From Catajapyx aquilonaris (Eukaryota): a stretch of DNA of 34,526 nucleotides. Shown piece by piece: positions 1 to 31,268 of this stretch. The notes below the pieces were generated by a model. The model saw only the letters and a list, made by a program, of their open reading frames with translations, was not told the origin of the DNA and ran no database searches. The DNA is taken from assembly GCA_000934665.2 (NCBI GenBank), contig JYFJ02004138.1, forward strand, positions 1 to 34,526. The letters are read 5' to 3'. The first letter of the stretch is position 1. Each line of letters opens with the position of its first letter. Position numbers and translations under genes: made by a program.

Positions 1-3000
1 GCACTGTTGGAAAGAAGAGGCTTGCATTACACTTCAGACAAAATAAAATACCCACGATAAGATGTTGCATTTTTCAGGAATGTCAAAGTCTGAAAGAGCT
101 AGTGTTGCTTACAAGCAGCGGTAATTTCACATGATGCTCTAGGAGAAGCCATTCCATTCTTCGATATGGCAGCAATCCTCACAGTGTAGTCTACACATGC
201 GTCAAGCCCACTGATGGATGTTTCAGTTGCTGTGACGTTTTTTGTGGAAATTACCTGTTCATCTTGTAGCACCTCTACTAGATACTGAGCCACACAATTT
301 GGAGCGACCTTTGGAAGATTCCAGGTCAGGTCAGCTGATCCGCTTGTGATATTTGTCGCACTGGGTTCTTGAGGAGCACTGGGCACTATTGGAAAGACGA
401 AGCTGCATTATATTCCAGGCCAAATGCTTTGAATATTAGGGGGTTAGGGGGCACGATAGTGCCCCCGCCTAGTTCTCGCCGCACTGCCGGACCACCTTTA
501 CCCGACACAACTCACGTCATTTTGACCCCCTCGAATCTTCGCACTGGTGAACATACGTGGCTTCAAAAATTTTATTTGGGTAGATGAAAATCGATGAAAA
601 ATTATACCTCCTTACTTCCATGTTCATATCTCTTTTCATTTCCGACTTTAAAAATCCTAAAAACTCCCGAAACGACCAAAATATGACACTCACTGACTCA
701 CTCACTGACTCACTGATCATCAAAATTATACAGAACTTCCAGTGGTCTTAGGATGCTGAAATTTGGTATGCTGGTAGAGATTGTCAAACAAACATCAGAA
801 TAAATATGAAAACGGCACTTTTTGGGGTCTAAATGCTCAAAAAAAAAAAAAAAACGCGAAGTCTGCTGCTGCTTACCAGATGCGGCATTTTTACCACGGA
901 TTAGGCCTACTTTTTACTTTGAAATTCCAGTTATGCTGGTGCTCCTCCTGCCTTCCCCACGTTCGTCTGATCTCCTCACCCCTCCCTTCCCTCCCTCCTC
1001 CCATACCGCTANGGGGGGGGGGGGGAAGTGCTACCAATTTCATCTAATACACACCCATTCAAATCTCCCATATTCACCTAAGCTCGTGTGACCTTGAACC
1101 CGAAAAATTGCGCCTGCGGCGGACCTCCCCCCCCCCCCGAACTGGAGTCCTGGCTACGTCACTGCCGCTAGCTATCTGACTGAAGCTGCGATTGCATTTT
1201 ATACAAATACAAATATTTCATACAAATACAACTACAAATACCTAAATACCTAAAATACAAAATAATACAAATACAATATTCGAGGTCATCAACAGCCTAT
1301 GTGTACAGGGAACAATTCCCAATTTGTGTGGAGTATGCCACTACCATACAGAGGACAGAGCCAAGGCCTGAGTCTTACTAATGCACTCATCGATATGGGT
1401 TCCTCTGTCTTCTCGTGCGGTCAAGCCTACGTGGCTCTTTTCAGAGTTAAAGTATCAATGGAGTGCATCTCATCAATGCCTCCTTTACTAACATCAAGGC
1501 TCAAGAGTCAGCTATTCTGGAGTACGATAGATTGAGATCTATTTACCGACCAGCCTTATCCATACTCAAAAGGGCTAATAAGGCATCGACAGAAGTGGTT
1601 AAGGATCGCGAATGGGCTATGCGATCAGGTGTAGCAGATGTCCAATTCGCACAACCAGAACAGAAAAAAAGGAAGCGTAATATGAGAAAGCAGAAGAAAA
1701 TCATGCCTATTCAGAGGAAAAGATAGTTTTACATACTTTCGTATATAGCCTACACAGTTTACTCTAATAAGAGTCTAAGTTATTAATTACCTTATTTGGA
1801 ATATTTAACGGACCATTGCTTCCACGCCCAACCCCGAGCTATCTTATAATATTATCCTACACTCCTGCCTACAAAAAGAGGTGAGATCCCACCAAAAACC
1901 TTTCTGTAAAAAAAGGCCAAGTTCTCCTGACTGATTGGCCGTAAAAAGTGGTGAGATCTGAAATACGGCCAAGTTCAACGTCGTTGTCAATTACTGGCCT
2001 TCTCAACTTCTTCAACCTAAACCACTAACTTTGTTTTTCCAGGTCGACCTTAAGTTTAATCATCAAAACATTTTACTGGTATTCTTGCTGTAACTTGGCC
2101 ATTGCTCATGTCCGAGGTATTGTTGAATTCTACAACTCTTTCAATGTTTTAAGAGCAATGGCCAAGTTACCGCAAGAGAAATTCCATTAATTTTTTTTTG
2201 ATGATTAAACTTAAGGTCGACCTGGAAGAACAAAGGTAGTGGTTTAGGTTGAAGAAGTTGATAATGCCAGTAATTGACAATGACGTTGAACTTGGCCCTA
2301 TTTCAGATCTCAACACTTTTTTACGGCCAAGCAGTCAGGAGAACTTGGCCTTTTTAACAGAAAGGTTTTTGGTGGGATTTTATTTTTCAAGGATTGCAAA
2401 GTCTGAAAATACTCGTGTTACTTACGAAGAAAGGCAGTGGTGAATTCACATGATGCTCTAGGAGAAGCCATTCCATTCTTCGATATGGCAGCAATCCTCA
2501 CACTGTAGTCTACACATGCGTCAAGCCCGCTGATGGACGCTTCAGTTTCTGTGACGTTCTGAGAGGAAATTACCTGATCATCTTGTAGCACCTCTACTTG
2601 ATAGTAAGCCACACAATTTGGAGCGACATTTGGAAGATTCCAGGTCAGGTCAGCTGATCCGCTTGTGATATTTGTCGCACTTGGTTCTTGAGGAGCACTG
2701 GGTACTATTGGAAAGACGAAGCTGCATTACATTCCAGACCATGTTGTGAATCCAGCATCTGAAGTAAGGCTAAGTTATAGTGTTTGATATACTTACTAGC
2801 AGTCAAAGTAGTTACACTCTCTTTAGTGAAGGTGTCACCTAGAAACGTATCATTTCCCAGGAGCTTGACCTCTGCGCTGAAATTATAACTTGTGCAAGCG
2901 TGTAATTTGTGACAAAACTGGGTTGCACAACTTGCGGTAAAAGGTGACGTGAATTGACACAAGTCTCTAAAATTCGCGATTGTGCACGATGTTCCATCGC

Positions 3001-4791
3001 TCGAGTTCAATCTAACGGAATCTATTAAATCGGTGCACTGGTAAAATCTCCAGTCCAGGGAGATGTTGTAAGGGCTGACAGCTTCTCCTTTGAAATCACC
3101 AATTATCGCAGCAGATGCTGTGGATAGCAATGTGTTATGAATGTGAAATAATTCACTGCTATTTTTATCTGCTTACCGACACTGGTGGTGTAATTGGCGT
3201 ATGTGTAGGGTCCATAATGTCCTCCTAATTTGAAAGCTCTAACTCGAATATTGTAAGCAGCGCATGGGTACACATTTACCGCGAATTCAGTGTTGCTTGA
3301 ATAGGTCCATAATTTCGGCCAATCCGGGCTACTCCTTGGCTTTGTTTGAACTTGATAGCCATGAATGCAAGAGGTGTTTTCAGTTGGTTCAGACCACTTC
3401 AGAAGCAATCTGTCTCCTTGCTGCTCTTCGAATTCAATTGGTCCTGGTGGACCAGGAGCTGTCAAAAAAAACCAACATTAATGCACTGCATTATTATCTC
3501 ATTATTATCATCGGTGCTCAGCAGTCATTAGTTGACGTTACAACAAGACTACAAACAGGTCTTACGTCCTCTGGGCATAAGAGATTCTCCTGTGCTCATG
3601 GCACCCAACCGACCATCTGAAGTCACCGACCAAACTTTGACCTCGATCTCGCTACATTCATCCTGGAAGTCATTCAGAGTGACACTTGTGCTCTTAGTGT
3701 TTATCGTTGTTCGATTACTGTCAAATATTGATCCATAGGAAATCTGGTATTGTTCAATGCAGGATGAGTAGTTGGCCGGTTTCTTCCATGATACGATCAG
3801 GGTGTAATCTTTCATAGGTGTCAGTTGCAAGTCTTCAGGTTCGCTGGATGCTAAATTGGAAAAGAAAATATTGATTACATTATCATGTTTCCTTTAAATT
3901 GTTACAAATTAGTGTTCGAATCCTCACTCGTAGATGCATTCGCCACTTCAAAGTCAGGTTGGAATGCCTCATGACCTTGAAGTTCGACTTCTGCTGTGAA
4001 ATGAACACTTTCGCAGGGATGAAATTCATGGCAATAGACCATTTGGCAGTAGGTCGTCGAGTTATGATTTTCGCAAACTTCGTTTACATTGTGAACTGTG
4101 CAATTGTTTCCATCGCTTGAATTGAATCGAAGAACCGCAATGTTTTTCTGGCACTGTGTGAGTGTCCAGGATAGAGAGATGTGGTAGGGACCAATCGCCT
4201 CAGCTGTGAAGTTCTCAATAATAGCGCCACTTTCTGTTGAAAAACAAGTACGAAACATTGTAGCAACTGCAGGATTAATGCCCGATTGCACCAACGAAAT
4301 TACCGATTCGATAACTCCTAACAGATCGTTAGCACACGTTAAAAGGGCTCCTAACAATCCATTACGAGCTATCGGATCAGAAATTTCGGTTGGTGCAATC
4401 GGTCATACGTTATACTGCAGCTGTAAAACATCTTGGATCTACCTTGACTGATGATTGGAGTCATGTTCACATCTGCGTCGTTCTCATCTTCGCAAGCACT
4501 TCTCGATGCCTTCTGAATAAAACAAGTAATTACATAATTATGTAGCTCCAAATACATTATCCCACCGTTACGGAAAGTTTAAAAATTAACAGACTGCCAT
4601 TTAAATATTTGTTTGAAATTAACGTATGGCAGAGAAAGCTGTCTTTAGTTGATGACGAACTATTCGGATCCCGAATTTAGTCTGAAATAAACAAAGTTAA
4701 TTTGATAGCACAACCTTACCTCAGCAGCATGTCCACTTGAATTAAACGACAAGAGAAGGAAGAGCAGAACAGCTATCGATCCACCTTCCAT
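1..4791 (-). CDS. FN3-D: multi-FN3-like extracellular protein; 3' part lies outside the window
   Basis: Exons: 4791-4720 (signal MEGGSIAVLLFLLLSFNSSGHAAE, Kozak gccATGG), 4512-4443 (KASRSACEDEND...), 4233-3928, 3850-3566, 3458-3177, 3117-2797, 2704-2426, 385-113. A further acceptor (ttccaacag|TGC) starts a next exon at position 3. Domain exons are phase 1-1. Confidence 0.83.
1012..1164. mobile_element. Small nested TIR element (hAT-like end); left end lost at the N
   Basis: Right end CCTGGCTACGTCACTG (reverse complement CAGTGACGTAGCCAGG) is followed by CCGCTA. The same CCGCTA sits just before the N at 1012, consistent with a target-site duplication. Confidence 0.45.
1280..1726 (+). pseudogene. 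Frameshifted PIF1-family (SF1B) helicase C-terminal fragment of a Helitron Rep/Hel protein
   Basis: Across frameshifts it reads AYVYREQFPICVEYATTIQ / SQGLSLTNALIDMGSSVFSCGQAYVALFRVK / GVHLIN, matching PIF1 motifs QFPL..AYA.TIHKSQG.SL and GQ.YVALSRV. Confidence 0.85.
1888..2376. repeat. ~490-bp imperfect palindrome (arms ~220 bp)
   Basis: CCCACCAAAAACCTTTCTGT...AACTTGGCCATTGCTC (1888-2108) is the reverse complement of 2153-2376, with a ~45-nt loop; AT dinucleotide on both flanks. Confidence 0.9.
4279..4405. mobile_element. Old palindromic Tourist/Harbinger-like MITE in FN3-D intron 2
   Basis: Inverted termini TGCCCGATTGCACCAAC and GTTGGTGCAATCGGTCA, with degenerate palindromy throughout. The termini resemble those of the 20788 MITE. 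Confidence 0.7.
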
Positions 4792-4826
4792 GGCAACTCC
4801 TTATTGGTACTGCAGAGAGTTTACAC

Positions 4827-5269
4827 CATAATCATAGTTTCCACTATAGAGCCATATGCCGTATCTCCACCACTCCAATACCCGTACTTGTCAAGATACT
4901 GCAGACACTTCGACGCAGGTCAGTCAAGTATACATGTTTGGACCCCTACTGTTTGCGTGCGATAAGAATTTCCTAATGAACTCATAATCCAGCTAATGTT
5001 GTGGCTCACTAAGCATATACGACATGTGAAGGTTAATATGTAATGATATTCTGTAATTTTGTAATTATAATTAGTATTGGTATACATCGAGCTCTTCTGT
5101 GTACATACATAAGCCCTGATATGCGCCTCTCATGTCTGAGGTCAAATTATTACCCAAGGTTAATATCATAATCCCAGTTTCCACTAGAGCCATAGGCCGT
5201 ATCTCCACCACTCCAATGCCTGTTCAAGATACCGTAAACACTTCGACGCCGCAGGTCAGTCAAGTATAC
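4827..5269. repeat. ~105-bp direct repeat pair upstream of the FN3-D ATG (4827-4933 and 5167-5269)
   Basis: Both copies share AGTTTCCACTA..GAGCCATA.GCCGTATCTCCACCACTCCAAT...CACTTCGACG..CAGGTCAGTCAAGTATAC. Confidence 0.85.
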
Positions 5270-5566
5270 CTTCCAAAAGGCATCTGCTATGCCGATGTCA
5301 TCGCCTGATGCAATAATACGTATAAGGCACTGATAAGCCTATATGCCATATAAGATCCGTTAGAGTCGTAAGCAACGTCAGCAACACATAATCGCAATCC
5401 AATATTAAAAGATACTATTCAGCATATTGCAGATTACAAATTAGCTGGAATGCCGGGGATCAGAGAGGTCGTCAAACTACCTCCAAGGTTAATATTCCGC
5501 GATATTTATCAACACGTCCTTTCCTTTCGCAAGTAACTTGATATTGTAGCAAACTCATACTTGATT

Positions 5567-5909
5567 TTTTTTTACATTACCCCGTGCTAGGGCCATGGGC
5601 CCTTATAGGGGGGTGGATTACCACCATTTTCCTTCAATTTTCTTATTATTTTCTTCTAACACCGGTGCAAGGATGAAAGGACGAGATGTGAGGATAGGGA
5701 TTTTCGGGGAGGGAACATGGGTGCAAGTGCACGTCTGAAAACGGGTCATGTGCTGTTCCCCAGGAGGTTAGGTTGCCAGACACCTCCAAGGTGCAGGTCA
5801 GAGACCCTCCTGACGCAGGTGAAAGGAAAGTTCCCCATGCGGGGATCGAACCTGGGGCCTTTCACACAGCAAGCCGAGACGTTACCATCACGGCCACCAC
5901 ACCTCCCCC
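5567..5909 (-). mobile_element. Full-length tRNA-derived SINE with 18-bp TSD
   Basis: Minus-strand head has an A box (TGGCCGTGATGG) and a B box (GGTTCGATCCC); A-rich tail at ~5567-5573. Perfect direct repeat GCAAACTCATACTTGATT at 5549-5566 and 5910-5927. A second copy is at 33579-33865. Confidence 0.9.
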
Positions 5910-6461
5910 GCAAACTCATACTTGATTAAATTTGTCAAATTCAGATAATACCTAACGCCCATGTTTTGTCGGCCCCTTAGAGCTAAAGCAAGGGCCAAAG
6001 TCTATTCCAATATCTATCGCAAAATGTACTGCAATTGATAGTATAACTAAACTTATAGTTATATCAACTCCAGTTAAGGACAACAATATGATTACGTATT
6101 TGTGAATACTTGCGTATAATCGGAGATTTTTATAGTTTGCTATTTAGATAAACCTATCTGGCATTGGCATAAAATTTACAGACTGTTTCAGCAACTTACC
6201 GGACCATCAGTATATGCTTAGTCAGCCAGTTTGTAATCAACCTCATATGTTATTGTCGCTTGACTGCCAGTTAAACATATTCGTGGAACGTGACATCAGA
6301 CAGCATTTTTATTTGCATTAATTTAATATACTCATCTTGCTACAGTATTTACAATGGATATCTTCAAGTGTGTGTCTCCGATGTAGTTATTTTCGCACTT
6401 TTACAGTTTGAAACTGTCACTTCACTGATACAGTCACTTCTTTAATAATGAAACAATTCAA

Positions 6462-9400
6462 TCAAAGTGTCCTCCTGTAATAAATGACGGCTGGCACGAA
6501 TAATAACACGAGCAGCACAGGCGGTTTGAAACCAGACACAGCAGAGCCACCTATTTAAAAGGAGAAAGAAAACCAAGTCTGAGTGCTTGAAAATGTTGCT
6601 GGGGTAAACAATCCTCAGTTGTTGTTTTTTTTGTTCCTGTTTTGTGATTCGGGAAGTGAATAATTCACCTGAGTCTGGATGGATGTAAAACTTGACAGGG
6701 GGCGAAGTACCTCCTTTGTTGACCGCAAAAGCTTGGCAGTCATATCTGACCTCGGACTGGACTAGGTCAGCTTCGATCCAGCAGTCTGACCTCTGACCCG
6801 GTGGCATGTCAGCGGTGCAATTGACAGTGAAATTCCCTCCTTTAAGAGACATGCAGTTGATTTCGAGGCTTGGATCTCCGCATAAACTTCCCTGGTTGAT
6901 CACATCTGGTTGGATCCAAGTGGCGTCCAATCCATAGTCCGTCGAGTTTACCACTTTGATGCCACTAGGTATTTTGGGTGGTGCTTTACGGTAAAACAAG
7001 GGAGAGGAAACAGTATATAGATTTTCATGCCATTTCTTCGATTTACTCACCCAGCTTTTTTGTGTAAAACCCGTGTGGTTTGGAGGTTCTCGACTGGTTG
7101 TTCCTGGTGACTGATGCAATGGTGAACTTGTATCCTGCACAAGCCATAAGACCGTCCACTTTGCAAGTTAGTTGGTCAGGTGGAACTCGGTAGGTCCGTC
7201 CTATGGTGTTGTATATGACAACTAGGTAGTGATCAACACACTGGGGATTTGAGTCAGTCTCTAACCATCTTAAGGTCACAGAATTTGGCCCTATTTCCTT
7301 TTCGTGTGGGATGACAGGAGAGCCCGGAACTGCAGAAAAAGTTACAGTACTCCTCATTAAATTAATTACTGCATGATTGTGGTGCACGGCCTGAATCTAA
7401 ATTCAGTGCAAACTAACCTACTTCACGGGTGGTGATATCCAACGTGGATTCTTGACCTAGTGACCCACTGGGTGTCACAGCTGCCACTGAAATGCGGTAT
7501 GTAATGCATGGTGTCAGGTTATCGAATGTCCTTTTTCTTTCCTGGCCCTTATCTACATGCCCTGAGTTATAAAGTTCTCCCCCTGTGAACATCGTAACTT
7601 TATATGCAGTGACACAGGTCCAGGCCGTTTTAGGAGCATCCCAAGTCACTGTGATCGAGCTGCTGGTGACCAGAGATGCTTCGAAATTTTGAGGTGGACT
7701 AGGAGCTGAAACATGAATCATCAGCAAATGCCTATTTAATTAACATATCACATTTACCTTCTTCAAGAGTCATGGTCTCGCTTGTTGCAGAACCATTATG
7801 AGAATCTTTGTAGACTGACAGAACTTCAAAACCGTAGTTTGTGCAGGGTTCCAATCCGCTAAAGGTGACGTACCCATTGTCTTCAAGTGGATCGTACGTT
7901 TCTACCTCACTTTCAAATTCATTTTTTTGATGGCACGAGTAATACATGCGATCAAAATTTTCTGTGCATACTGGAAGATCAGCGTAGACCGTCGCTTCTC
8001 TCTGCCCTGGGCTTATTCGAAGGCCTCTAGGGTTGAAATCGGAAGCTGCAAAGCAAGAGAGAATGTGACACTTCACATTCAGAGTCATCTAACCGAGCTA
8101 ATGACTGGACTGGTCCAAAACAATTTTTAATTTTGTAAGCGGGAGAATATTGTCTAGACACTGACAGGTATGACGATCTAAACAAGCACAGAATTGTTAC
8201 CTGCAGTGGTAACGTTGTTTGTGTTAAGTTTAGACGAACTTCCAGACAATCCATCAGGAGTTTGAGCCCACACTTCGATCTCATACCACTGACAGGGAGT
8301 TAGTTCTGTCAGATTTAGGCTTGTTTGTGACACGGGAATAGTTTTGTTGATGTTTCCACCGTGGTATGAGACGTAATAAGTGTGTACACATTCCGGGTAT
8401 GTTGCAGGCTTCGTCCATGACACATGTAATGTATGAGGAGCCAGGGATTGCACCTGCAGATTGGTCGGAGAGCTGGGGACTAAGTGAACACATTGCATTT
8501 AATAAACTGGAGATATCTTTTGTAGTTTGACAGCTTTTATGAGCTTACCTGTGTCAAATGTGTGGATAATTCCGGTCACGACTTCTGAACCCAGTGGTTT
8601 CACCATTGTCCACAACTGTACTGATGCAATGTACGTTTCGTTGGGCCGGAGGTCCTTGGAGAAATAGCGATAGCAAGTGTCGTTTTTGCAGAATGAGCTT
8701 AGAAGCTGCTCCTCACCCTCAGTGATATTTTTAAGCAGCGTGTACACCGTAAAGGTAGCTTTGTATGCATGTTTCATATCTGCGCATTTTCCCAGCGTCA
8801 TGTTGAAATACAAGTATATTCGGCCGCAGCTAGCACCACCTGCCCACAGCTGTTTAATAGCAACTGTTTCGCCTGAAATATTGTACCCAACACACATTTA
8901 GCTCTCAAATTAATGAAAGCATCACTAACTTGTCTGTCACAAACTTCAAGTCATGGCCAATAAGGTCAATACAATTTGATCCGAAATATTTATCCGAATG
9001 GTTGTTTGTTGGGTACTTATTTTGCAGCAGTACATTTTGCATAGTTACTTTGAATGGTTATCAAAATCAGTTCAGCCTAATATTGACAGCTAATAGCCTA
9101 CCATTTTAATAACCGAGCAAAGGAAACTGCTACAAAATAAGCAGCTTGGTGGGTGCCATATTAGTAGGGCAAATATTTTGGATCACTGAATATTACTTGG
9201 ACATTTTTCAGGCTGCACTTGTAGAGTGTCACTTGTGATAAATTTCTTGGAGTCATTATTCCCTGGGGCTGCTGATGCTGGGACCTAATTAATGTCAAAA
9301 TGTCAATAAAATTTTTTCATGTGGCATAGGTTTGCAATCTTATTTTTTCCATAAGATTATTATTATAATGTGAGGCACTCAAGCAGAAAAACCAACATTA

Positions 9401-9631
9401 AAAATGAGTTAAGGATATTTTCAAAATGCAGCTGTAGTCTCTAGTCAGCAATAATATTCCTAACTGAACGCGTTTTAGGTATGTGCTGCAGAAAATACAG
9501 CATATGTGCTGCATCCTATGTTTCACTGCACTCTGTACGTTACTTACCAGTGCTCGGCAGAGTGTGAATCCATTAAAAATTTGCAGCAGGACGAAAATAA
9601 TACTGGCATTTGCCACCTTGAATCGTTCCAT
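6462..9631 (-). CDS. FN3-C: cell-surface, probably GPI-anchored, protein with 6 FN3-like domains; 9 exons, ~677 aa
   Basis: Exons: 9631-9548 (signal MERFKVANASIIFVLLQIFNGFTLCRAL), 9284-9197 (VPASAAPGNND...PEKCP), 8872-8549, 8479-8201, 8045-7758, 7705-7418, 7329-7051, 6983-6669, 6550-6462 (GGSAVSGFKPPVLLVLLFVPAVIYYRRTL, TGA). The joined length is 2034 nt and stays in frame. Minus-strand AATAAA near 6308-6313. Confidence 0.85.
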
Positions 9632-13200: not shown

Positions 13201-16200
13201 GAATCTGATGTGATCTGGCAGTGCTGTCAACCCTCAACTGGACAACTTCTCGTTCCCAATCGTGTCCCCAACTATATTCAATTCCATACTGACCTATGCA
13301 GCTTGAAGCTTCTTGGCGATTCTTCCAGGCGATTTTAATTGTTCGGGAATATTGCGTGATTTGCAGATCTTCCGGTCTGCTTGGTACTTGTAGGGAAAGA
13401 AAATGCAGGGTTAGTAATTCCTGCATACAGGATGAGTCTTAACTTCGTCACAATAATTAGTTAACCCTACTTGAATCCTTCGTGTTACTGGTGATGGTGA
13501 CTGCAGATGCATTTGGATAGTCACGGTACAGAGATGTTACGCTGAAGTTGTACACTGTGCAAGCTTCCAGGCCGGTTAGTACACACTTGCACGAATCTTT
13601 GTCGCATGTTACTCTTTCGGTTTTGCTCGAGGCATTGACTGTGTACATGTCGGTAAAGCAAACTGGAGCTGTCCAGTAAAAAGTGGAGTTGGAGGACCAG
13701 GTGTCGACCTGAAAATTTCTCACCATGTGATCGGTGTCTGAAAAGAATGTTTGATTTAATGAATGTACCCATTTGAAGTAATTCAAAACTAACCATTTCC
13801 AATAACTTTTTCATTGAAGATTGTTGCGTAAGAGTTGCTCATCTGACCGTCCAGTGTCACTGCCCAAATTTGGACGTCGTACTCATTGCAACCTTGCAGG
13901 TCAGTCAGAATCAGCTTCTTGTTAGCAGTGGTTTCATTTGTGCCGTGTTCACTTCCGGATGGTTGGTACCAGACGATGTAATGGTCCGCACATTGAGGAT
14001 GCTTTTTTGGCCTGCTCCAGCCAAGTTCAAGAGTGTGCGGCTCATCAGAACTGGCTCTCAAACGAATAGGTCTGCTTGGAACTGATAATTTGCAAAATTG
14101 AAAAGAGAAATTTCCGTCTACTAATTAGTGCCTATAACTCACGGTATGTCTGGGTAATCACGCCGTTGCTTGAGTCGGACTTGTGCTGAAACTCGTCTTT
14201 TCCTTTAAGCCTCACTGACACGGCGAAGGAGTAGTTGGTGCAAGGTTCGAGGTGATTGCAAAACGCTGAAGTGCAATTAGCAGAGAAAAGGCTACCGTCC
14301 ACCGAACATATGTCACGGATGTTTGTAATTACACAATGGCTGCTTTCATTAGCATCAATTCTGACGGCTTCTATTAACTCTCCGCATTGACTGAACCCCC
14401 AGTCTAACGTGACGTTGAAAGGTCCATTTGCAGTAGCTCTTATTCCTTGAATAATCTCTTCAGATTCTGCAAAAAAAAAATGCGAGATATGACACCATAA
14501 TGCATGGCTTTTCCGCAATGGGGAACTAGCCTTCATTTTGGAAACTACATAATAAATTCGCCCATATTTTTTGGATTTTTTTGGCATATTCCGTTTTAAG
14601 ATATCAGTTCCCGTTCCGGAGTAATTGGGGTTTTTATGTAGGGAAGTGGTGACGTCACTGTTTCCCTAGAAAATGTTGACGTCACGCGAAGTGAAAGGAA
14701 CGCAAAAATGGTGTTATAGAACGCGCCCCGTCATTGTTGTAAAATGCTTCGCTGTTGTTAGCAACCGTCCCATTCCGTGAGCAAGATAGCGGCCGGGGCG
14801 CGTTTTTACTTCACGCCGCTCAATCAGCTAAGGGGCTGGCAGTGGTGCCAACTGGCAGGAATCATCTGTCACCCGAATTCGGCACATGAAGGCCCCCTTT
14901 TCTCCACCTCGATGGCCTACAGCCGCCTTGCGAATGCTTCCCGTCGTGTCCGCGGTTAATTCAAAGTCAAATTCCTCATATCTCGCAGTCAACCAGGCAT
15001 TTCAGTGTACCCTTTCGATTGGCAGCGGCGTTTTTCCCGCCAATTTTGAAGGCACTTTTAAATGTGCCGTAATTTATCCAGTAATGTCATTTTGATGCAA
15101 CAGAGTGATGGAATGTATGTTTACAGGCATGGGCTAGCTAGTTATGAACAAAAATCCCAAATCCCAGACCAAGGCTAGTTCCCCATTGTTCACACTCACT
15201 CATTGTAGTTGTGAAGGTGGACTTAATGTAAGGCCCAGATTTTTCCATCGGTGTTACTGGCCCGACATATACTTCGTATTCAACACAAGGAACCACACTT
15301 GCTGCAAAAGTGGTTTTGTTGGTTACTATTTTATTGGTCCAATTTTGGCCGGTACTTGTCTTCATCTGCACGTAATATCCAGCAACACACTCGATGTTTC
15401 TCAGCGGAGGAAGCCACGATATTTCTACTTGGTTGTTTGATAGCTCTTGGATTGTGATATTTGGCGGTGAACTAGGGACTGAGAGATTTGACTTGTTAAA
15501 ATATAGTGTGAATATTTCTGAAGAACGTGTTTGGGAATGGCCGTACTCACATTCTTCCGCTACAGTGACAGCGACAGTGTCTTCTCCTGGCAGTAGACCT
15601 TCTTCCGAAAATAACTTGACAGTAACGTTGTACAGCTTGCATGGAGTGATATCTTTACTGATTGAGTAATTGCATCTACCGATAATTTTGTTACAAACAG
15701 TAGGCAAATCATCATCATGAATTGTTTCGTTGTAACTTGTCAAAATTGTTCTGATACCGCTGGCCATCTTCATAGCGCACTTTCCAATATCGAATTGAAC
15801 CTCAATCGATTTTGAGGATATGGACCAGGCAGACAAGTTTACGACGGTGTCTGAAAAGTCAATCGTTGTTATCATAGCAGCATACTTGTACAGAGCAATA
15901 ACTTACATTCATCTGATTTCCCAGGTAAATATATGCTGGATTCATTTTCATAATTGTCCTGACCAGTGTAGAGAGCGGCTACGGAAATTTCGAAGTCAAG
16001 GCACACATCCAGAGGTTGGCAAAACTTTGAATGGCATGCACCATGTTCGTCGCAGGCTCCGGTATGGTTGGCAAAGCAAGTCAGGGCATTGTCACCAGGT
16101 GTTTTGGAGACGGCTGTCAGCCTGTATCGTGACAGATAGGCCGGCTTACACGAAGGGGACATCCAACGAACATGGGCCAGTTCATTATCAACATGCGAGT

Positions 16201-16603
16201 GTCTCGTTACGGTCAGATTCCTCACGATTTGACCACCATCTACAAGAGGCGAGAAGAAAAATACACGTGAACACTATACCAAACTAGGTGATTGCAAACA
16301 CTATAATTGCCCTAACCAGTACCTGGACATGGCTTAATGTTGGTTGATGAAATCATTCTTCTTGACGATGTGTGAGATGGGCCAATAATCGGCCAGTAAT
16401 ATGTCCTGCCCTTAAATAGTTAGGAAAATTTACAATAATTACTGGTAGAATTCACCTGACATCAAGCATGACGTTATTGGCAAAAGGTCATGACTGTATG
16501 ACCTTATATTAATAATAATAATACTTACCTTATTTTTAACCTGTCCATATGAGTTAGCCCACCACAAAACACTTAGCAATAACAGTGTTCTTGTCACTGC
16601 CAT
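10298..16603 (-). CDS. FN3-B: secreted multi-FN3-like protein, 16 coding exons, 15 domains, ~1530 aa; paralog of FN3-A
   Basis: Exons: 16603-16529 (or 16541; signal MAVTRTLLLLSVLWWANSYG), 16410-16323 (GRTYYWP...SSRRMISSTNIKPCP), 16239-15907, 15850-15551, 15478-15200, 14466-14143, 14081-13794, 13737-13471, 13386-13093, 13027-12734, 12669-12070 (two domains), 11993-11712, 11658-11356, 11293-11012, 10948-10643, 10581-10298 (TAG). Internal domain exon lengths are all multiples of 3. Exon order is collinear with FN3-A exons 4-17. No transmembrane segment. Confidence 0.88.
14516..15188. mobile_element. Non-autonomous DNA transposon (~670 bp, 18-bp TIRs) in FN3-B intron 5
   Basis: Perfect inverted repeat CAATGGGGAACTAGCCTT (14516-14533) and AAGGCTAGTTCCCCATTG (15171-15188). 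It accounts for the only long intron of FN3-B. No clean TSD, so the superfamily is not assigned. Confidence 0.75.
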
Positions 16604-17105: not shown

Positions 17106-20100
17106 TCAATTGCATGAAGGCGTTGTGGTGAAATTGGCGTATCTGAAGTGCCCCATTCTTCCTCCGGATGTGACTGCATCGACCCTGAAGGAATACTCGA
17201 CGCAGGGACGCACTGAAACCGTCAAATAATTAACATCAACACGGCTGTACAGAGACGGCCATTCTTCGTCACTCTTCTTCATCTGGAAGTTATAGGAGCC
17301 GACGCAATAAGCAGAATCCTTCGGGATGCCCCATTTCACCACCAGAGAGTTGCCTGGGAGATCCTCAAACTCCATCTCCCCAGGTTCACCAGGCACTGTT
17401 GGAAAGATAAGTACGTGTAATAACAATGGAGAGTATAAATAAATTCATTCAGCACCTTCTTCGCTGTAAGGAAAGGGGCCTATTTTGGCAATGTCTCCGA
17501 TTTTTCCATCAGAACCGTACAACTGCAGTGTGACCGTGTAGTCCACACACGGGTACATCTTTTGAGGTATGGCCAAGTTGCAATTGATACCTTGACACAC
17601 GGTGATTATGCTAAACTCTCCCAAAAACACCAATCTGATTCCCATAGCCGCCGTTACCAGGACGGTTTTCGCAATATCCAAATTGCACAGCCTCAATTGA
17701 AAGCCTATCATCGGATTGGTCGTGTTCGTTGCGTTAACAGTCAAATTGACCACAGAATCTGGAATTAACATTTCACGTTTTAAGTTAAACTCTGGTACAC
17801 TATGCTATATTTTAAGGTGTAAATATTTTCAATTAATTTATACCCGAAGGCGTGCTGCAGTAGTTTGCGAATTTGCATGGACCTCGTTCATCCAAAAATG
17901 TTTCGGGACATATTCGCACGTTGTAATCCAAGTCCGGTTGCACCTTCGTGATGTCAAAGGTGTCGTTTGTTTCGTGATCTTCATTGGTCCAGATCTGATC
18001 TTCTTGCTTAATCTGCACTTTGTAGTGGTCAACACAAGCAGGGTTTACTTCCGGGCTAGACCAGGCCATCCAGAGAAGGTTTCCGGGCAATTCCTCAAAC
18101 TCGACTGATCCTGGTTCGCCAGAAACTGCGAAAAAATTTATTTAACAATGCATTCAGAAAACCGAAAAAAATGGCAAATACCTTCTTCCATCATGGTAAC
18201 AGGCATTGTTGTTATCGTTTTGCCGTACTTTCCTTCTGAAGTGTAGGTCTGTATCGCAAAGGTGTAAGATTTACATGGGAACAAGCTCTCCGGAAAGGTG
18301 AAGTAGCAATTATTTTTTAAGCAAACTTTCGATTTGGACAGGTCTGCCCACTCAACTTTCTCGCTGTCTGTTGATGCCACTACGAATATTTTCTCGACCT
18401 TATCGGCCGTGCATGACCTCAGGTCAAACCTGAGGGACGCATGAGTTGAATTTAGTGCCTCTGCCTCTAAATGTATCACCGGATCTGAAACAGTGCTCAA
18501 TGAACATATAGGAATCAGAGTGGACAACAGTACATACCTGCAGGGGAAGTGCAGTAAGTGCCATGAACGTAATTCCCTCGTTGACCTGTAGGCGTGACAG
18601 CCCATACTCGCACCATGTAATCGACGTCTGATTGCACATCAGTGATGTAATATGTGTTGTTGGTAGCCACTGACGAATTGGTCCAATCGGAATCGAATTC
18701 CTTAATTTGCAAATAGTACTCTAGTACGCATGTTGGGTTGAGAACTGGTTGAGACCATCTGATCAGAAGCTCGTGCTCTGGAAGTTCCTCAAATGTCAGC
18801 TGCACCGGTTCGCTTGGAGCTGTAACAATCATATCAAAATGTGACTGGTGAGAACTGACAGCAATTGTGAAGGCAACTCACCTTCTTCCATCAATGTGAC
18901 AGGACCGATGCCCACAGTGTTGCTGATATTCCCTACATTACTGTACAGAGTGACCGTAAAATTATAGACATTGCAAGGAGAAAGATCCTGAGAGTAAGTG
19001 AAATTGCAGTGTCGACTTTTGCAGGCTGATGTCACGTTCAGATAGCTCCAAGATATCATGTTGTTCTCTTTGAAGGCTTCCACAAATACGTTGGTAGCAA
19101 ATTGACTGATGTCATCCTCCATGTCGAACTGGATTTGCACCATTGTGGAACTGGCAGCATAAGCCGTGATATTTGCAATCTCGTGACCTCCTCCATGCGT
19201 TCTGGTGTCAAGAATGACCTCATCTGATTGCCCACCCGAATTGTTGGCAACAACTCTGCACTCGTAGTTGGTAGACGGCTGTAGGTTTTCTATCCAGCAC
19301 TGTGACAACTCTCCAACCGAACTGTTGCTCCTGCACACCCTTTCCGAGTGACCAGCTGACCTGGACGAGCAGTTGACCCGGAGGTCAGGCTCCCCACACA
19401 GGCTGTCCTTACTGATATCAGGCTGGTGCCACACAATTTCCACTGAATATGTTGTAACGAGGCCAATGGCAGCGTCAGGCTTGGGTGGTCCTGAAGTAAT
19501 TGTTTATCATTATACATGTATAAACAAATTGAATGCTGTACACATAATGACTTACGAAGGGACATAGTAGTGAAATCAAGCTGCTTGCTTTCACTTTTGT
19601 AGCTCGTGCTGAATGCAGTGACTGCAGCCTGGTATTGTCCGCAGGCTTTGAGACCACTGTCAACATTCTGAGAAGTAACATCGCTCAGTACATTTGCAGT
19701 AAACACTTGCATTTCTTTATAATACACTGTAACATTGTAACGCCGCACGCATTCGTATGCAATGTCAGGAGGCTTCCACTGTATGTCAGCAGAGTTATAG
19801 GAGGTGCCAGCGGCGCTTATTATTGCAGGAGGACTGGGAGCTGAAATGTAACAAATTAGTCATATCATAAGTTATGACAAGCCCTGCTTCAAAATTTGGG
19901 CAGTACCCTCTTCCTGTGTGCTTGTGGTATTGGAGGCTGCTGTGCCTGGCCTCCCGCCGATAGTGATACCCACCACTTCTACGCTGTAATTGGTGCATGG
20001 ATGCAGACCATGCAGCAAAACGGTTAGGGTTGAATTAGAAACAGTCTGGTTATCGCCGTCTCCATATGCACTCCAGTGTGAAACATTATAATGATCGATG

Positions 20101-23100
20101 CACTTCGAAGCCTTTTCGGGTGCCGTCCATGAAACTGTGATGGAACTATTAACACTGCTGACAAGTTTTAGGTCTCGCGGATCACTCGGTACTAAAATTG
20201 AAAGATTGTACGTAATTAATGCACTGCCACTGAATAATCCAGCAACATGACGTACTTGTTTCTTTCGTTTCATGTGTCATTGCAGCTGCAGGAGCATCGG
20301 GATAATCATCATACAAAGCTGTTACGCTGAAATTGTACATAGTGCAAGCTTCCAATCTCTTCATTTGATACTCGCATGACGCTTCATTGCAAGTGATGTT
20401 GTGTTCTCGTCCGTCCGAGGCCTTCAGCACATAGTCTGAGTTGTTGCAAACTGGTGCGTCCCATTGCAGAGTAGCGTTGTAATATCCAGTGTGGACATGT
20501 AAGTTGCTGACCGTGTGCTCGGTTTCTGAAAATATTTCATTTAATTACAAAATACTCAACAACGTTACACCATTGTCTCACCATTTCCCATAACTGCTTC
20601 ATGATTAATCTTTGCATATTTGGTGCTGTTTTTCCCGTCGATTGTCACTGCCCATACTCTGACGTCGTAAGCCTCACAGCCTTGCAGGTCCTTCAGAACC
20701 ATATTCATTTGAGTAGTTCTTACAGTCTCGTAGAGTTCGATCTTATTGGATGGTCCGTACCAGACGATGTAATGATTTACACACTGAGGGCCAGTTGCAC
20801 CGACCTCAGTATATCTTGGAACCTCGGGTATATCAAGAATTGCCATAGCAATCATTGTTGACCAACAATGATTGCTATGGCAATTCTTGATATACCCGAG
20901 GTTCTAAGATATATTGAGGTCGGTGCAACTGGCCCTGAGGATACATTTGAGGCTTGCTCCAATTCAGGGATAGAGTGTGCGGGTTGTACGAACCGGATCT
21001 CAAATGAAGGGGTTTGCTTGGAGCTGCAGCAATTCAAATTAAGGTAATATAACGCGTTATAAAATTAATGTCGGAACAGTACAGGAAAATTGAGACTCAC
21101 CTAAAGTCTTAGTTGTGATGACATTACTGGGGTCCGACTTGTTCTGGTACTCACTCCTTCCTTGAAGTTTCACCGACACACTGAACGTGTAATTTGTGCA
21201 AGGTTCGAGTGTCAGGCAAACAGGGGAGGAGCATGTTGCTGTGAAAGTGCTGTTGCCCACTGAACAGACATCTTTTGTGATGTTCATTTCACAGTGATTG
21301 TTGTCACTAGCGTCTTTTCGTATGGATTCTAGCAGCTCTCCACATTGACTGAAACTCCAGTCTAAGGACGCATTGAAAGGACCCGTTGCCGTAGCGTTGA
21401 GATCAGTAATTACTTGTCCAGGCTCTGTGGAAACATAATTTTAATTACCATTGATTCAGAGAATGAACACGATTCAGTGATATTTTCAGTGTCGCTTTTT
21501 AAAAAAACACACACACACACCTTTATGTAATGGAGTTTGTAGCACTGAAGCTGCAGTTGATAAATGGAAGGTCTATCGGATTTTACCAGTCGTAGGCAAC
21601 AGTTAACCAGCAATAGATTTTGTCTTCACCAACATGGTCAAATATTTGTTTTGGATTATCTTAAACTGTCCTTTTGCAATTAGTGTGTTTCTCATGTATG
21701 TACGTACACGACGCATAGCTATATGATTCAAAAGGTATCCTGCACTAAAATAATCGTTTTGCTCTAGATTACTATGTAGGCCTACTGGCTATACTATATA
21801 TGTACTAGTATATACTATACTATATATGGCTATACTGGGATGAGCCAAAGTACAGGAGGCTACTTTTTGTGCTGAATGATTCAACTCTCAAAATGAGGCC
21901 ACAAGTTAGTTACATATGGGCATGATAAAATCTGACATAAAGGGTGTGTAACCTACAGTGATTGTTCTTATGCACTTACTCATGATCGTGGTGAAGGTGA
22001 TGTTGCTGTATACTCCAGCCTTTCCCTTTAGTGTGTCCGCCCCAACACGAACGACATATTCGACGCAAGGTAACACTTCTTCCGTAAAATTGGTGTATGT
22101 GGTATGGTTTTTGTAGGTCCATTTTTGGCCGGTGGGCCTACTTGGCTTCATCTGCACGTAATATCCAGTGACACACTCGATGTTTTTCGAGGGAGGAAGC
22201 CACGATATTTCCACCTGATGTTGATTTGTTGGCTCAAGGATTTTGATGTGTTGCGGCGCGCTAGGGGCTGAGAGAGGAATTAGACTTGTTAAAAATCTGC
22301 TGTGAGGTATTTAATGCATGAATATTCCTGAAACATATGCACGGGAAAGGCAGCACTCACGTTCTTCTGCGATTGTGACAGGTCCAACAGTGTCTTCTCC
22401 CAATAGACCTTCATCCGACCATAACTGAACAGTCACGTTGTACTGCTTGCATGGAGTGAGGAGTTTAGTGGTGGAGTAATGACATCTACTGCTATTTGTG
22501 TTGCAAACAGTAGTAATATCTTCATCCTCAGTGAGTGTTTCGTTGTAGCCTGTCAATAGAGTTCTGATACCCCTGGCTGCCTTCAGAGCGCACTTTCCAA
22601 TATCGAATTGAATCTCAATCGTCTTGAGGCTTGTGGACTTGGCAGTCAAATTCACGATGGCCTCTGAAATTTCGCTTTCCATTAATGCAACAATGTTCGA
22701 TAATAACGATATAATATCTTACCATCATCTGCATATGATGCTGTAGCAGGTAAGTCGACTGAGGCCTCATGTCCGTAACTCCGGGAGTCATTGTAAGATA
22801 TGCTGACGCTGAGGGTGTAATCGAGGCACTTGTCCAGCGGGTGACAAAAATTAATACTGCAGGAAGTGTCGTCACATGCATCGGCGTTGCTTGTGTAGCA
22901 AGTTAGCTTGCTCTTTTTTGAAGTCTTTGGAGTTGCAGACAGCATATACTCTGACACGTAAACCTGGTTGCATGAAGACAGAGTCCAGGTAAAGAATACG
23001 CTTCTTTCCTCCTCGTCATCGTAATCGCCATCATCACTTGATATATGCAGGTTGCCGACTGTGTCATTAAGACCTGCGAACAACGCAACATAAATGCAAT

Positions 23101-24222
23101 CTAAAACGCTATTTCATAAGGCTAATTTAGTATGGCGGATTATTTCCTTTCTGTGCGCACCTCCGGAGTGTGCCCATCCCTGGACAGTGTTCGACCAATC
23201 TCCGGTGACATTGTCGAACGTGACCATTGCAACACGGAAGTCAAACAGTGAGCATGCAGGCACTGTCATCAAGGTCACAGAAGTGTCGGTGACTCTCATT
23301 TCGAAGCTGGTCCACTCGTTCTCTAAATGTTCCTTGCATTCCACCCTGTACCAAGTGGGACAGGAGTCGCTTTCCCACGAGAGTTGCACCAAGTTGGGGC
23401 CGGGATGGTCACTTATCCTGACTCCTTTCACCACATCTGAGTCACAGGGAAAAAACCAATGTTTATGATATCGGTATTTGTGTTCGATTGTAGCAATAAT
23501 CGCTACAAAAGTGCCACTCACTTTACGAGCAAATTATTTTTAGTCAATAGAATTGTTAGTACCTGGGCATGTTGATGCTACTGAATTAGTGGCCATCCTC
23601 TTTCTCGAAGCACTTCTCCATGTTGATCTAATGCTTTGCATATAAACTGTGTTATCCTGAATAAAAACAGACATTTATAATATTAATAAATATGTATTTA
23701 TTAGTAAATTAGTAAACCTGTACATATGCTAGGATCAACATTGACTTGTGGGCATAAACTCGAACAATAATGATTTAAAAAAATATGAATCCGTAAGCGA
23801 TAAGATGCTGCTAGTACTTTTTATCGTCTCTTTTCCGCCTGTCAAGGTCGGAAAGATTATGCTGGTGAGGCACAAACCCATTCACAATAATGAAACCTAT
23901 GCAGCTGAAGATTATTTGCCATTCCCCCTGCACCATCGTTCCTCGTCCAGTTAATATTACATAATGCATATAGGGATAGCAATATCGACATTCACATAGC
24001 GTATCAAAAGATTCGTGACAGGAATATGGATCCCTAAACTTTTTGTCCTTGTGATGTCTCTATTATATGGCCCAAAACCGACGCTCATTTGAAACACCCA
24101 AGATTAATACGACGTACGAAACCAAAATCTACCTCATTGTTGATGTTGTTGGTACCAGATCCTCCGGAGTTGCAATCCGCGATGACCAAAAGCAACACCA
24201 GCAGAGGAGCCAATAGTTTCAT
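17106..24222 (-). CDS. FN3-A: secreted multi-FN3-like protein, 17 coding exons, 16 domains, ~1641 aa without the MITE; exon 8 is interrupted by a MITE in this haplotype
   Basis: GT-AG exons in transcript order: 24222-24133 (signal peptide MKLLAPLLVLLLVIADCNSG), 23656-23563 (linker ...SRKRMATNSVASTCP), 23436-23161, 23073-22723, 22663-22361, 22267-21980, 21424-21101, 21023-20582 (contains MITE), 20525-20256, 20191-19907, 19840-19556, 19490-18882 (two domains), 18819-18538, 18484-18182, 18125-17844, 17758-17456, 17395-17106 (TGA). All internal domain exons are phase 1-1. FN3 hallmarks are present (PxxP start, strand-B Trp, LxPCxxY tyrosine corner). AATAAA copies follow the stop at ~17084-17099. 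Confidence 0.85.
20788..20935. mobile_element. 148-bp near-perfect palindromic MITE (PIF/Harbinger Tourist-like), 3-bp TSD, inserted in coding exon 8 of FN3-A
   Basis: GGGCCAGTTGCACCGACC...GGTCGGTGCAACTGGCCC with 73-bp arms, a 2-nt loop and 2 mismatches. Flanked by TGA at 20785-20787 and 20936-20938. Removing it and one TSD restores ...MYPQCVNHYIVWY, matching the paralog ...HPQCADHYIVWY. Confidence 0.93.

Positions 24223-28130: not shown

Positions 28131-28195
<65 letters not shown>

Positions 28196-31190: not shown

Positions 31191-31268
<78 letters not shown>
31191..31268. repeat. (ATT)n microsatellite
   Basis: About 26 ATT units. Confidence 0.95.

What the first reader, a model, noticed from the sequence alone, without database searches (positions are those of the whole stretch)
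1..24222. Tandem cluster of modular, Cys-rich FN3-only extracellular proteins: candidate diversified recognition or matrix system
Seen: four head-to-tail paralogs with the same layout (signal exon phase 0, short Cys-containing linker exon, then strings of phase 1-1 single-domain exons), with 16, 15, 6 and at least 7 domains. The three complete genes have no Ig, phosphatase, kinase or cytoplasmic domain. Known: canonical fibronectin FN3 domains lack disulfides, whereas nearly every domain here has a Cys before the strand-C Tyr plus an LxPCxxY Cys. Inference: this is a lineage-specific family with soluble and membrane-tethered members that diversifies by exon duplication, shuffling and conversion. 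That pattern is typical of immune/allorecognition receptors or gut/cuticle matrix proteins. Automated annotation may mislabel such genes as receptor-PTP-like or tenascin-like.
Basis: partly seen in the sequence, partly recalled or inferred. Interest (0 to 1): 0.85.

Follow-up and report, generated by a model that had tools for sequence, protein, structure and literature searches.

The report
Tandem cluster of cysteine-bearing FN3-only genes
Four neighbouring animal genes encode secreted or membrane-anchored, sugar-coated chains made only of fibronectin type III domains, and the placement of their cysteines suggests that each domain is tied to the next by a disulfide bridge, which would be an unusual way to build a stiff extracellular rod.

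Summary
On the minus strand of window 113-24222 lie four head-to-tail genes. Each has a signal exon (phase 0), a short exon with one Cys, then phase 1-1 FN3 exons. Gene A has 16 domains, B 15 and C 6 plus a hydrophobic anchor exon. D has 6 in the window, not 7 or more, and runs off the edge.

Every domain type is FN3 by Pfam or AlphaFold2/Foldseek. No Ig, kinase or phosphatase domain was found.

40 of 42 domains carry a BC-loop Cys and 34 of 42 an EF-loop Cys. These sit at opposite poles of the fold. In 36 of 38 junctions a bottom-pole Cys of domain n meets a BC Cys of domain n+1. In 2 of 38 both are missing. None is mismatched. I infer serial inter-domain disulfide staples (about 0.55; no 3D proof).

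A/B exon dN/dS is 0.18-0.53, so selection is purifying. N-glycosylation sequons are about 2.4-fold enriched. This favours a structural matrix or surface-coat role over immune or allorecognition diversification.

No specific relatives were found in any library searched. Expression and taxon remain unknown. In this haplotype exon 6 of gene A holds a polymorphic 151-nt repeat insertion.

The parts
17106..24222 (-). Gene A. Signal exon 24133-24222, Cys linker exon 23563-23656, then 15 domain exons encoding 16 FN3 domains, with the stop inside the last exon (17106-17395). 1544 aa without exon 6.
   Evidence: Exon model with AG/GT borders and one terminal stop; Pfam fn3 on the ORFs; AATAAA at 17094-17099.
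20582..21023 (-). Gene A exon 6 (domain A6). It is interrupted at 20784-20934 by a 151-nt insertion whose terminal inverted repeats start at 20789 and 20934.
   Evidence: Alignment with the gene B exon; perfect 20-nt inverted ends; DNA contigs in all 4 runs skip exactly 20784-20934, with 6 nt shared on both sides; the exon is open and 291 nt once the insert is removed.
18882..19490 (-). The only intron-less two-domain exon of gene A (A10, the 'PPKP' five-Cys type, plus A11). The junction has a Gly-rich linker and neither an EF Cys in A10 nor a BC Cys in A11. The gene B counterpart is 12070-12669.
10298..16603 (-). Gene B. Signal exon 16529-16603, Cys linker exon 16323-16410, then 14 domain exons encoding 15 FN3 domains, stop in the last exon. 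1532 aa. Collinear with A2-A16.
   Evidence: collinear blastn at 66-78% identity, introns included in the 3' half; reciprocal best domain matches A(i)=B(i-1).
6463..9631 (-). Gene C. Signal exon 9548-9631, Cys linker exon 9197-9284, six FN3 exons, and a final exon 6463-6550 encoding a hydrophobic C-terminal anchor followed by RRTL-stop. 677 aa.
113..4791 (-). Gene D, 3' end outside the window. Signal exon 4720-4791, Cys linker exon 4443-4512, six FN3 exons. The last two (2426-2704 and 113-385) are recent duplicates separated by a 2040-nt intron that carries a long inverted repeat.
18182..18484 (-). Exon of domain A13, the example of the Cys-rich 'type II' domains that mostly miss Pfam fn3. It was folded: seven strands, with Cys24 in the BC loop, Cys54 and Cys59 at the C'E loop and start of strand E, and Cys70 in the EF loop.
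   Evidence: AlphaFold2 pLDDT 94.5; Foldseek matches FN3 domains only.

Best explanation
Window 113-24222 (minus strand) holds a tandem array of four paralogous protein-coding genes of an animal with a compact genome. Each encodes a signal peptide, a short N-terminal segment with one Cys, and a chain made only of fibronectin type III domains. A and B are secreted 15-16-domain proteins. C is a 6-domain protein held on the membrane by a C-terminal hydrophobic anchor. D is incomplete in the window. These points are shown.

The following is inferred. The proteins are heavily N-glycosylated. The two near-universal cysteines of each domain do not pair within the domain, because one sits at the top pole (BC loop) and the other at the bottom pole (EF loop, or in a few domains the end of strand G or the AB loop). 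Instead the bottom Cys of domain n bonds to the top Cys of domain n+1. The N-terminal linker Cys caps the first domain, and a tail Cys caps the last domain of A and B. The result would be disulfide-stapled, stiff rods. In A and B the rod is interrupted by one unstapled, Gly-rich hinge between domains 10 and 11 (9 and 10 in B).

The most likely role is structural: an extracellular matrix, surface-coat or adhesion scaffold rather than a diversified recognition receptor.
For: Gene structure.
- Open spliced frames, phase 1-1 exons, four signal exons, terminal stops and poly(A) signals.

Fold.
- Pfam fn3 reaches 25 bits or more in 20 of 42 ORFs.
- The Pfam-negative Cys-rich type folds as a 7-stranded sandwich (pLDDT 94.5) that matches only FN3 domains in the PDB (27 matches at E <= 0.001).
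- The canonical type gives pLDDT 91.6.

Selection and glycosylation.
- dN/dS is 0.18-0.53 in 14 of 14 exon pairs.
- Sequons number 43/41/15/19 against shuffle means of 18/17/6/7. None of 500 shuffles reaches the observed value.

Staples.
- In both models the BC Cys lies right after strand B or before strand C, and the EF Cys 2-3 residues before strand F. By FN3 topology (established knowledge) these are opposite ends of the sandwich.
- Of 38 junctions, 36 have both partners, 2 have neither and 0 have one only.
- The double loss falls on the only intron-less junction, which has a Gly-rich linker.
- Where the EF Cys is missing (A12/B11, A14/B13, C1), another bottom-pole Cys is present.
- 4 of 4 genes have one Cys in the linker exon. 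A and B have a tail Cys after the last domain. C6, the last domain before the anchor, has no bottom Cys.
- A11/B10 lack the BC Cys but keep the C'E/E pair, which implies that this pair is internal and the BC Cys is the external partner.
- The BC loop (0.70) and EF loop (0.64) are as conserved between A and B as the strands (0.61). FG (0.39), CC' (0.47) and C'E (0.49) vary more.
Against: - No three-dimensional model of a junction could be obtained. The tools return no coordinates, and spliced two-domain sequences may not be submitted.
- Mature A and B have an odd number of Cys (55 each). C3, C5, D5 and D6 carry one extra Cys that the scheme does not place.
- The covariation rests on essentially one independent double loss plus three relocations, because A and B are paralogs.
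- No precedent for serial inter-domain disulfides in FN3 arrays turned up in two full-text searches. Searches returned 2 and 0 papers, neither relevant.
- Expression is unproven: no RNA run is on record.
- Gene A carries a frame-breaking insertion in this haplotype. Another contig of the same sample has a 4-nt insertion in exon 10, so A may be dispensable.
- The structural function is inferred from composition and selection only.
Confidence: 0.55

Rival explanations
1. The conserved cysteines make intermolecular disulfides. The proteins would polymerise or cross-link side by side into an insoluble matrix, cuticle or coat, rather than being stapled internally.
For: Two Cys at opposite poles of every domain would also suit ladder-like cross-linking. 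A and B each have one unpaired Cys under any internal scheme. Heavy glycosylation and an acidic composition fit matrix proteins.
Against: The N-terminal linker Cys and the C-terminal tail Cys look like caps for an internal chain. The coordinated absence of both partners at one junction, and the relocation of the bottom Cys within the same pole, are expected for neighbours in one chain. Membrane-anchored C shows the same pattern.
Confidence: 0.2
2. This is a diversified recognition family (immune, allorecognition or self/non-self). Tandem duplication, exon shuffling and polymorphism would generate binding variety.
For: Tandem paralogs with different domain numbers and orders. Mosaic dS suggests conversion. 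Presence/absence and frameshift variants occur in one sample. Soluble and anchored forms coexist.
Against: dN/dS is 0.18-0.53 for every exon pair, with none above 1. The BC loop, a usual binding loop, is among the most conserved parts. There is no Ig domain, no cytoplasmic signalling motif, and only 4 residues after the anchor. Only four genes are seen.
Confidence: 0.12
3. The four units are exons of one large gene, for example the ectodomain of a receptor phosphatase or a Dscam-like receptor. The 'signal exons' would then be chance ORFs.
For: All units are on one strand with short spacers of 0.5-1.7 kb. No RNA evidence is available to exclude read-through.
Against: The last exons of A and B run into stop codons two residues after the domain, with no phase-1 GT donor there. 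Poly(A) signals follow. Each unit begins with Met plus a hydrophobic stretch and a strong phase-0 donor. C ends in an anchor exon. No phosphatase, kinase or Ig family appeared in the 62 ORFs scanned.
Confidence: 0.03
4. The cluster is decaying. The genes are recent pseudogenes or dispensable copies without a current function.
For: Gene A exon 6 is broken by a repeat insertion in the assembled haplotype. A 4-nt insertion in exon 10 exists in another contig.
Against: B, C and D are open over 1532, 677 and 629 codons. dN/dS is well below 1 for all A/B exons. The insertion-free form of exon 6 is present in the same sample and is open.
Confidence: 0.07

Closest known systems
FN3-only ectodomains of R3-subtype receptor tyrosine phosphatases (PTPRB, PTPRJ/CD148, PTPRH, PTPRO, PTPRQ)
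   Same: Long strings of FN3 domains with no other extracellular module, and heavy N-glycosylation. The Foldseek list for domain A13 includes PTPRZ, PTPRD, LAR and CD148 FN3 domains.
   Different: There is no transmembrane-plus-phosphatase part: A and B are secreted and C ends 4 residues after its anchor. Pfam Dep-1-type FN3 models did not match the window's exons. That those ectodomains lack the BC/EF Cys pair is recalled, not tested.
Fibronectin, tenascin and titin FN3 arrays
   Same: They are the best sequence matches to the canonical (type I) domain profile in the PDB (titin 6e-64 summed, fibronectin 1e-31). They share the one-domain-per-exon layout (phase 1-1 is recalled for ECM FN3 exons).
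   Different: In the three alignments shown, the EF-loop position is never Cys in titin or fibronectin, and the BC position is Cys only in two titin domains. The window has no EGF, fibrinogen, FN1/FN2 or Ig modules.
Cytokine-receptor homology modules (class I and II cytokine receptors, tissue factor)
   Same: These are FN3-like domains that do contain disulfides, including a C'-E link (recalled). There are weak Pfam side hits to Interfer-bind, Tissue_fac and CRLF2-like_D2, all below the cut-offs. The window's genes alternate a Cys-rich domain with a plainer one.
   Different: No WSXWS motif before strand G. The Cys positions differ (BC and EF loops). There are 6-16 domains instead of 2, and no signalling tail.
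FNDC7 (vertebrate secreted FN3-only protein of unknown function)
   Same: Recalled only: a signal peptide followed by FN3 domains alone. Its function is uncharacterised in the literature listing I saw (titles and abstracts only).
   Different: Not testable here, as no reference sequence could be fetched. An exhaustive phmmer run found nothing above generic FN3 similarity (0 of 1.84 billion representatives at E <= 1e-30).

Membership tests
Fibronectin type III domain (Pfam PF00041, FN3 fold) | Sequence match to the family profile at the curated threshold | tested here: met
   20 of 42 ORFs score 25 bits or more, and 27 of 42 have E <= 0.1. The type I profile matches 334 PDB FN3-containing sequences.
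Fibronectin type III domain (Pfam PF00041, FN3 fold) | Seven-stranded beta sandwich (A, B, E / C, C', F, G) | tested here: met
   AlphaFold2 models of A13 (pLDDT 94.5) and A16 (91.6) show seven strands in this order. Foldseek returns FN3 domains only, with TM about 0.6-0.78.
R3-subtype receptor protein tyrosine phosphatases | Transmembrane helix followed by a cytoplasmic PTP catalytic domain | tested here: not met
   No phosphatase family in the 62 ORFs scanned. A and B stop after the last FN3. C stops 4 residues after its anchor. Exons beyond the window cannot be excluded for gene D.
Class I cytokine receptors | WSXWS motif near strand G of the membrane-proximal domain | tested here: not met
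   The regex finds one WSAWS, in B13, at the strand-B Trp position. None lies near strand G.
Tenascins / fibronectin | EGF repeats plus a fibrinogen globe (tenascin), or FN1/FN2 modules (fibronectin) | tested here: not met
   No such Pfam family in any ORF.
IgSF recognition receptors (Dscam, allorecognition genes) | Immunoglobulin domains | tested here: not met
   Only sub-threshold Ig-like side hits that overlap fn3 matches.
IgSF recognition receptors (Dscam, allorecognition genes) | Diversifying selection or hypervariable exons | tested here: not met
   dN/dS is 0.18-0.53 in 14 of 14 exon pairs. This was tested only between paralogs, not in a population.
FNDC7 | Orthology to vertebrate FNDC7 | not testable with these tools
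   No reference sequence is available. Exhaustive phmmer gave only generic FN3 hits.

The most novel reading that the evidence does not exclude
These proteins are a previously undescribed architectural class: FN3 rods in which nearly every domain junction is covalently locked by an EF(n)-BC(n+1) disulfide. The chain would be capped at both ends by dedicated Cys residues, with one built-in unstapled hinge. The family would be evolving by whole-exon duplication and reshuffling, which works because every exon carries its own 'plug' and 'socket' Cys.
Probability: 0.45. Interest if true: 0.7.

Novelty: new variant of a known kind. Interest (0 to 1): 0.5.

Why it matters
FN3 domains are textbook examples of disulfide-free modules joined by more or less flexible linkers. 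A natural family in which each phase 1-1 exon brings one top and one bottom cysteine would be different, because any order of exons would yield a covalently stapled rod. That would show how exon shuffling and structural rigidity can be combined. It would also give protein engineers a template for rigid monobody-type arrays. It would define a new extracellular protein family for the organism concerned. If the staples are not real, this is an ordinary lineage-restricted FN3 gene cluster.

Tried and rejected
- No whole genome is held for the window.
- No earlier notes exist for this genome, sequence or key words.
- Sequencing runs: no RNA holder is listed. There are only 4 DNA runs, from one sample and one study, plus one run with next to none of the words.
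- Word-indexed protein searches gave no specific relative. The didomain query found nothing among longer proteins or proteins of similar length. The type II profile found one bacterial FN3 protein at 1.4e-7.
- Exhaustive phmmer of the A10-A11 didomain gave 85 hits at E <= 0.001, 5 at <= 1e-10 and 0 at <= 1e-30. I scanned 18 of the 85 against Pfam: all were generic FN3 repeat proteins, several with bacterial modules. None of the 85 has more than 2 matches to the two Cys motifs, against 18, 17, 7 and 8 in A-D.
- The look-up of source names for the hits was switched off.
- ESM Atlas returned only generic FN3 clusters (after a busy answer).
- The metagenome contig scan found 503 pattern matches, none confirmed.
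- Rfam gave no match in the window.
- Pfam on 20 further ORFs outside the cluster found nothing useful for placing the organism.
- The complex prediction of A13 with A14 as separate chains gave no answer.
- The A16 fold was meant to show whether the tail Cys is ordered. The last 5 residues average pLDDT 63, which is uninformative.
- Two-domain alignments for folding (A5, A6) were misaligned by MAFFT and were not folded.
- Literature: 'interdomain disulfide' with FN3 gave 2 irrelevant papers. 'Inter-domain disulfide' gave 0. FN3 loop and interface terms gave nothing pertinent. 'FN3 domain, conserved cysteines' led only to a tenascin paper whose cysteines lie in the assembly domain (passages read). 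CD45 ectodomain terms gave 0.
- A Helitron origin for the insert between D5 and D6 was my recollection of a helicase-like motif. Pfam did not support it, so I dropped it.
Full report
What is there.

The window is eukaryotic DNA at 37-47% G+C. No whole genome is held for it. All FN3-like open frames lie on the minus strand between positions 99 and about 24400. Of 42 ORFs scanned against Pfam, 27 match fn3 (PF00041) at E <= 0.1, and 20 of these reach the 25-bit gathering score. No Ig, kinase, phosphatase, EGF or other extracellular module reaches its threshold.

Candidate splice sites show phase-1 AG acceptors and phase-1 GT donors bracketing nearly every domain-sized ORF. Chaining them gives four reading frames, each with a single terminal stop or none.
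- Gene A (24222 to 17106) is 1544 aa.
- Gene B (16603 to 10298) is 1532 aa.
- Gene C (9631 to 6463) is 677 aa.
- Gene D (4791 to 113) is at least 629 aa and runs off the window.

Every domain exon is a multiple of 3 in length. Introns are mostly 52-126 nt.

Each gene starts with Met plus a hydrophobic stretch, in an exon that ends in phase 0. A 70-94-nt exon containing exactly one Cys follows. It ends ...TCP...PCP and ...KCP in A, B and C, and reads ...SACE... in D.

A and B stop two residues after their last domain, with no phase-1 donor there. AATAAA lies 10 nt after the stop of A and ATTAAA 126 nt after that of B.

C ends in a separate exon encoding GGSAVSGFKPPVLLVLLFVPAVIYYRRTL-stop. This is either a single-pass anchor with a four-residue tail or a GPI signal; I cannot tell which. 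Four separate transcription units are therefore the best reading, but no RNA run is on record.

Domains.

- Type I is a canonical FN3 with two Cys.
- Type II is Cys-rich with 4-6 Cys, and most of these miss Pfam fn3.
- Type III starts 'PPKP' and has five Cys. It occurs once each in A, B and C.

A type II domain (A13), folded with its 15 paralogs as the alignment, gives pLDDT 94.5 and seven strands. Foldseek against the PDB returns only FN3 domains (PTPRZ, PTPRD, CDO, contactin, Dscam and others), with 27 matches at E <= 0.001 and TM about 0.6-0.78. A type I domain (A16) gives pLDDT 91.6. The 'FN3-only' description is therefore correct.

Paralogy and selection.

A and B are collinear duplicates at 66-78% DNA identity, with introns included in the 3' half. 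Domain A(i) is the reciprocal best match of B(i-1), and A has one extra N-terminal domain.

C and D give no blastn hit to A or B. At the protein level C1, C2, C3 and C6 resemble A3, A6/B5, A7/B6 and A10. D1 and D4 resemble A5, D3 resembles A16, and D5/D6 resemble A9/C4. Domain order has therefore been reshuffled.

D5 and D6 are recent duplicates, 89% identical over 372 nt and 93% over 300 nt.

dN/dS is 0.18-0.53 for 13 A/B exon pairs and for D5/D6. dS ranges from 0.12 (A12/B11) to above 2.7, a mosaic that suggests gene conversion.

N-glycosylation sequons number 43, 41, 15 and 19, against shuffle means of 18.2, 16.9, 6.0 and 7.4. None of 500 shuffles reaches the observed value.

The cysteines.

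The BC-loop Cys is present in 40 of 42 aligned domains, and is invariant in 21 of 21 type I domains. The EF-loop Cys is present in 34 of 42.

In the two models the BC Cys lies directly after strand B or before strand C, and the EF Cys lies 2-3 residues before strand F. In the FN3 topology the BC, C'E and FG loops and the N-terminus lie at one pole. The AB, CC' and EF loops and the C-terminus lie at the other pole (established knowledge, for example from monobody work). The two Cys cannot bond within a domain.

In a head-to-tail array the bottom pole of domain n faces the top pole of domain n+1. I tabulated all 38 junctions, treating A5-A7 as one because A6 is broken here.
- 36 have a bottom-pole Cys in domain n and a BC Cys in domain n+1.
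- 2 have neither. These are A10-A11 and its paralog B9-B10.
- None has only one partner.

The junction that lacks both is also the only one without an intron, and it has a Gly-rich linker (…THGGGHE…).

In the five domains of the tabulated junctions that lack the EF Cys but are followed by a BC Cys, another bottom-pole Cys is present. It sits at the end of strand G in A12/B11 and A14/B13, and in the AB loop in C1.

A11 and B10 lack the BC Cys but keep the C'E/E pair. That marks this pair as internal and the BC Cys as the outward partner.

The linker-exon Cys in all four genes sits just before domain 1. A and B have a tail Cys after the last domain. C6, which precedes the anchor, has no bottom Cys.

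Between A and B, the BC loop (0.70 identity) and the EF loop (0.64) are as conserved as the strands (0.61). FG (0.39), CC' (0.47) and C'E (0.49) vary more.

All this fits a chain of EF(n)-BC(n+1) disulfide staples with caps at both ends and one hinge.

Against it:
- I have no coordinates.
- A and B have an odd Cys count.
- C3, C5, D5 and D6 each have one unplaced Cys.
- The independent covariation events are few.

Two literature searches for inter-domain disulfides in FN3 proteins found nothing relevant. This speaks neither for nor against the idea, beyond the lack of a known precedent in the library searched.

Function.

The evidence consists of purifying selection, conserved junction loops, dense glycosylation, net acidic charge, no RGD motif and no signalling tail. 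It points to a structural extracellular role (matrix, surface coat or adhesion scaffold) rather than diversified recognition. This is inference. Tissue and expression are unknown.

Relatives.

- Exhaustive phmmer of the A10-A11 didomain against 1.84 billion representatives gave 85 hits at E <= 0.001 and none at <= 1e-30. The 18 I examined are generic FN3-repeat proteins, many of them bacterial. None of the 85 shows the Cys motifs repeatedly (compared).
- The word-indexed searches, the ESM Atlas, a metagenome scan and a PDB profile search gave only generic FN3 similarity.
- These libraries do not even return the window's own proteins. The absence of relatives is therefore weak evidence for lineage restriction.
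- FNDC7 came to mind as a vertebrate FN3-only secreted protein. I could not test it, and the literature listing shows no functional or structural work on it (titles and abstracts only).

Variation in the sample.

Contigs of four DNA runs (one sample) were laid on 4400-24300.
- In all four runs a joint skips exactly 20784-20934, which is 151 nt with 6 nt shared on both sides. This is the insertion-free form of exon A6. The inserted palindromic element is a high-copy repeat, with bin depth in the thousands against about 30 elsewhere.
- With the insert removed, exon A6 is open (291 nt) and encodes a canonical type I domain with both Cys.
- One contig per run carries a 4-nt insertion behind 19450, inside exon A10, which would shift the frame.
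- A weakly supported joint, 6556 to 10874, appears in two of the four runs with only 30 nt on the shorter side.

Gene A may therefore be segregating null alleles. B, C and D are intact in the window.

Verdict.

The interpretation as a modular FN3-only family with soluble and tethered members is supported. The immune or allorecognition suggestion is not.

The most interesting point is new to this stage: the cysteine placement implies serial inter-domain disulfides. I give that about 0.55 as part of the overall explanation, and 0.45 for the full 'plug-and-socket exon' reading.

Noticed in passing
window 20784-20934 (inside gene A exon 6): A 146-nt element with perfect 20-nt inverted ends and a 5-6-nt duplicated site, MITE-like. 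It is a high-copy repeat in the genome (bin depth in the thousands against about 30). It is present or absent within one sample: contigs in all 4 runs skip exactly these 151 nt.
   Followed up: yes
window 19450 (gene A exon 10): One contig per run carries a 4-nt insertion (GTCA on the + strand), at depth similar to the reference form. It would shift the frame and hit a stop soon after, unless it is compensated by a change not shown in the table.
   Followed up: partly
window 6556 joined to 10874: Contigs in 2 of 4 runs join these places, skipping 4317 nt with 10 other letters between them. That would remove gene C's domain exons and the 3' end of gene B, placing part of exon B14 next to gene C's anchor exon. 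Only 30 nt lie on the shorter side, so it may be a repeat artefact.
   Followed up: no
window 5064-6391 and 14360-15687: Very high-copy repeats, with summed contig depth of 10^4 to 10^5. They lie in the C-D spacer and in the 733-nt intron of gene B. Many loose ends and internal joints occur there.
   Followed up: no
window 1943-2068 and 2196-2321; also 4264-4423: A long inverted repeat (126-nt arms, 94% complementary) lies in the 2040-nt intron between the duplicated exons D5 and D6. A second self-complementary stretch of about 160 nt lies in the intron before D1.
   Followed up: partly
genes A and B, exon pairs: Synonymous divergence is strongly mosaic. dS is 0.12 for A12/B11 and 0.37-0.86 for the other 3' exon pairs. 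Two 5' pairs are saturated (dS above 2.7) and one more is near saturation (1.8), against 0.40-1.12 for the other four. This fits gene conversion or a more recent exchange in the 3' half.
   Followed up: partly
gene A/B domains 11-16 (B 10-15): The C-terminal six domains are three copies of a two-domain unit (Cys-rich type II followed by type I starting [PS]GEP/PSEP...FEEL). The N-terminal part up to the PPKP domain is roughly collinear with membrane-anchored gene C. A and B may therefore be a fusion of a C-like ectodomain with a triplicated didomain module.
   Followed up: partly
window 25870-26493 (+), 28135-28195, 31191-31268, 32500-32962: Upstream of the cluster there is a Glu-rich ORF with one weak C2H2 zinc-finger match (E 0.069, below the cut-off). 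There are also (TAA)20 and (ATT)26 microsatellites and a 165-nt tandem repeat of 2.8 copies. No conserved gene was recognised.
   Followed up: partly
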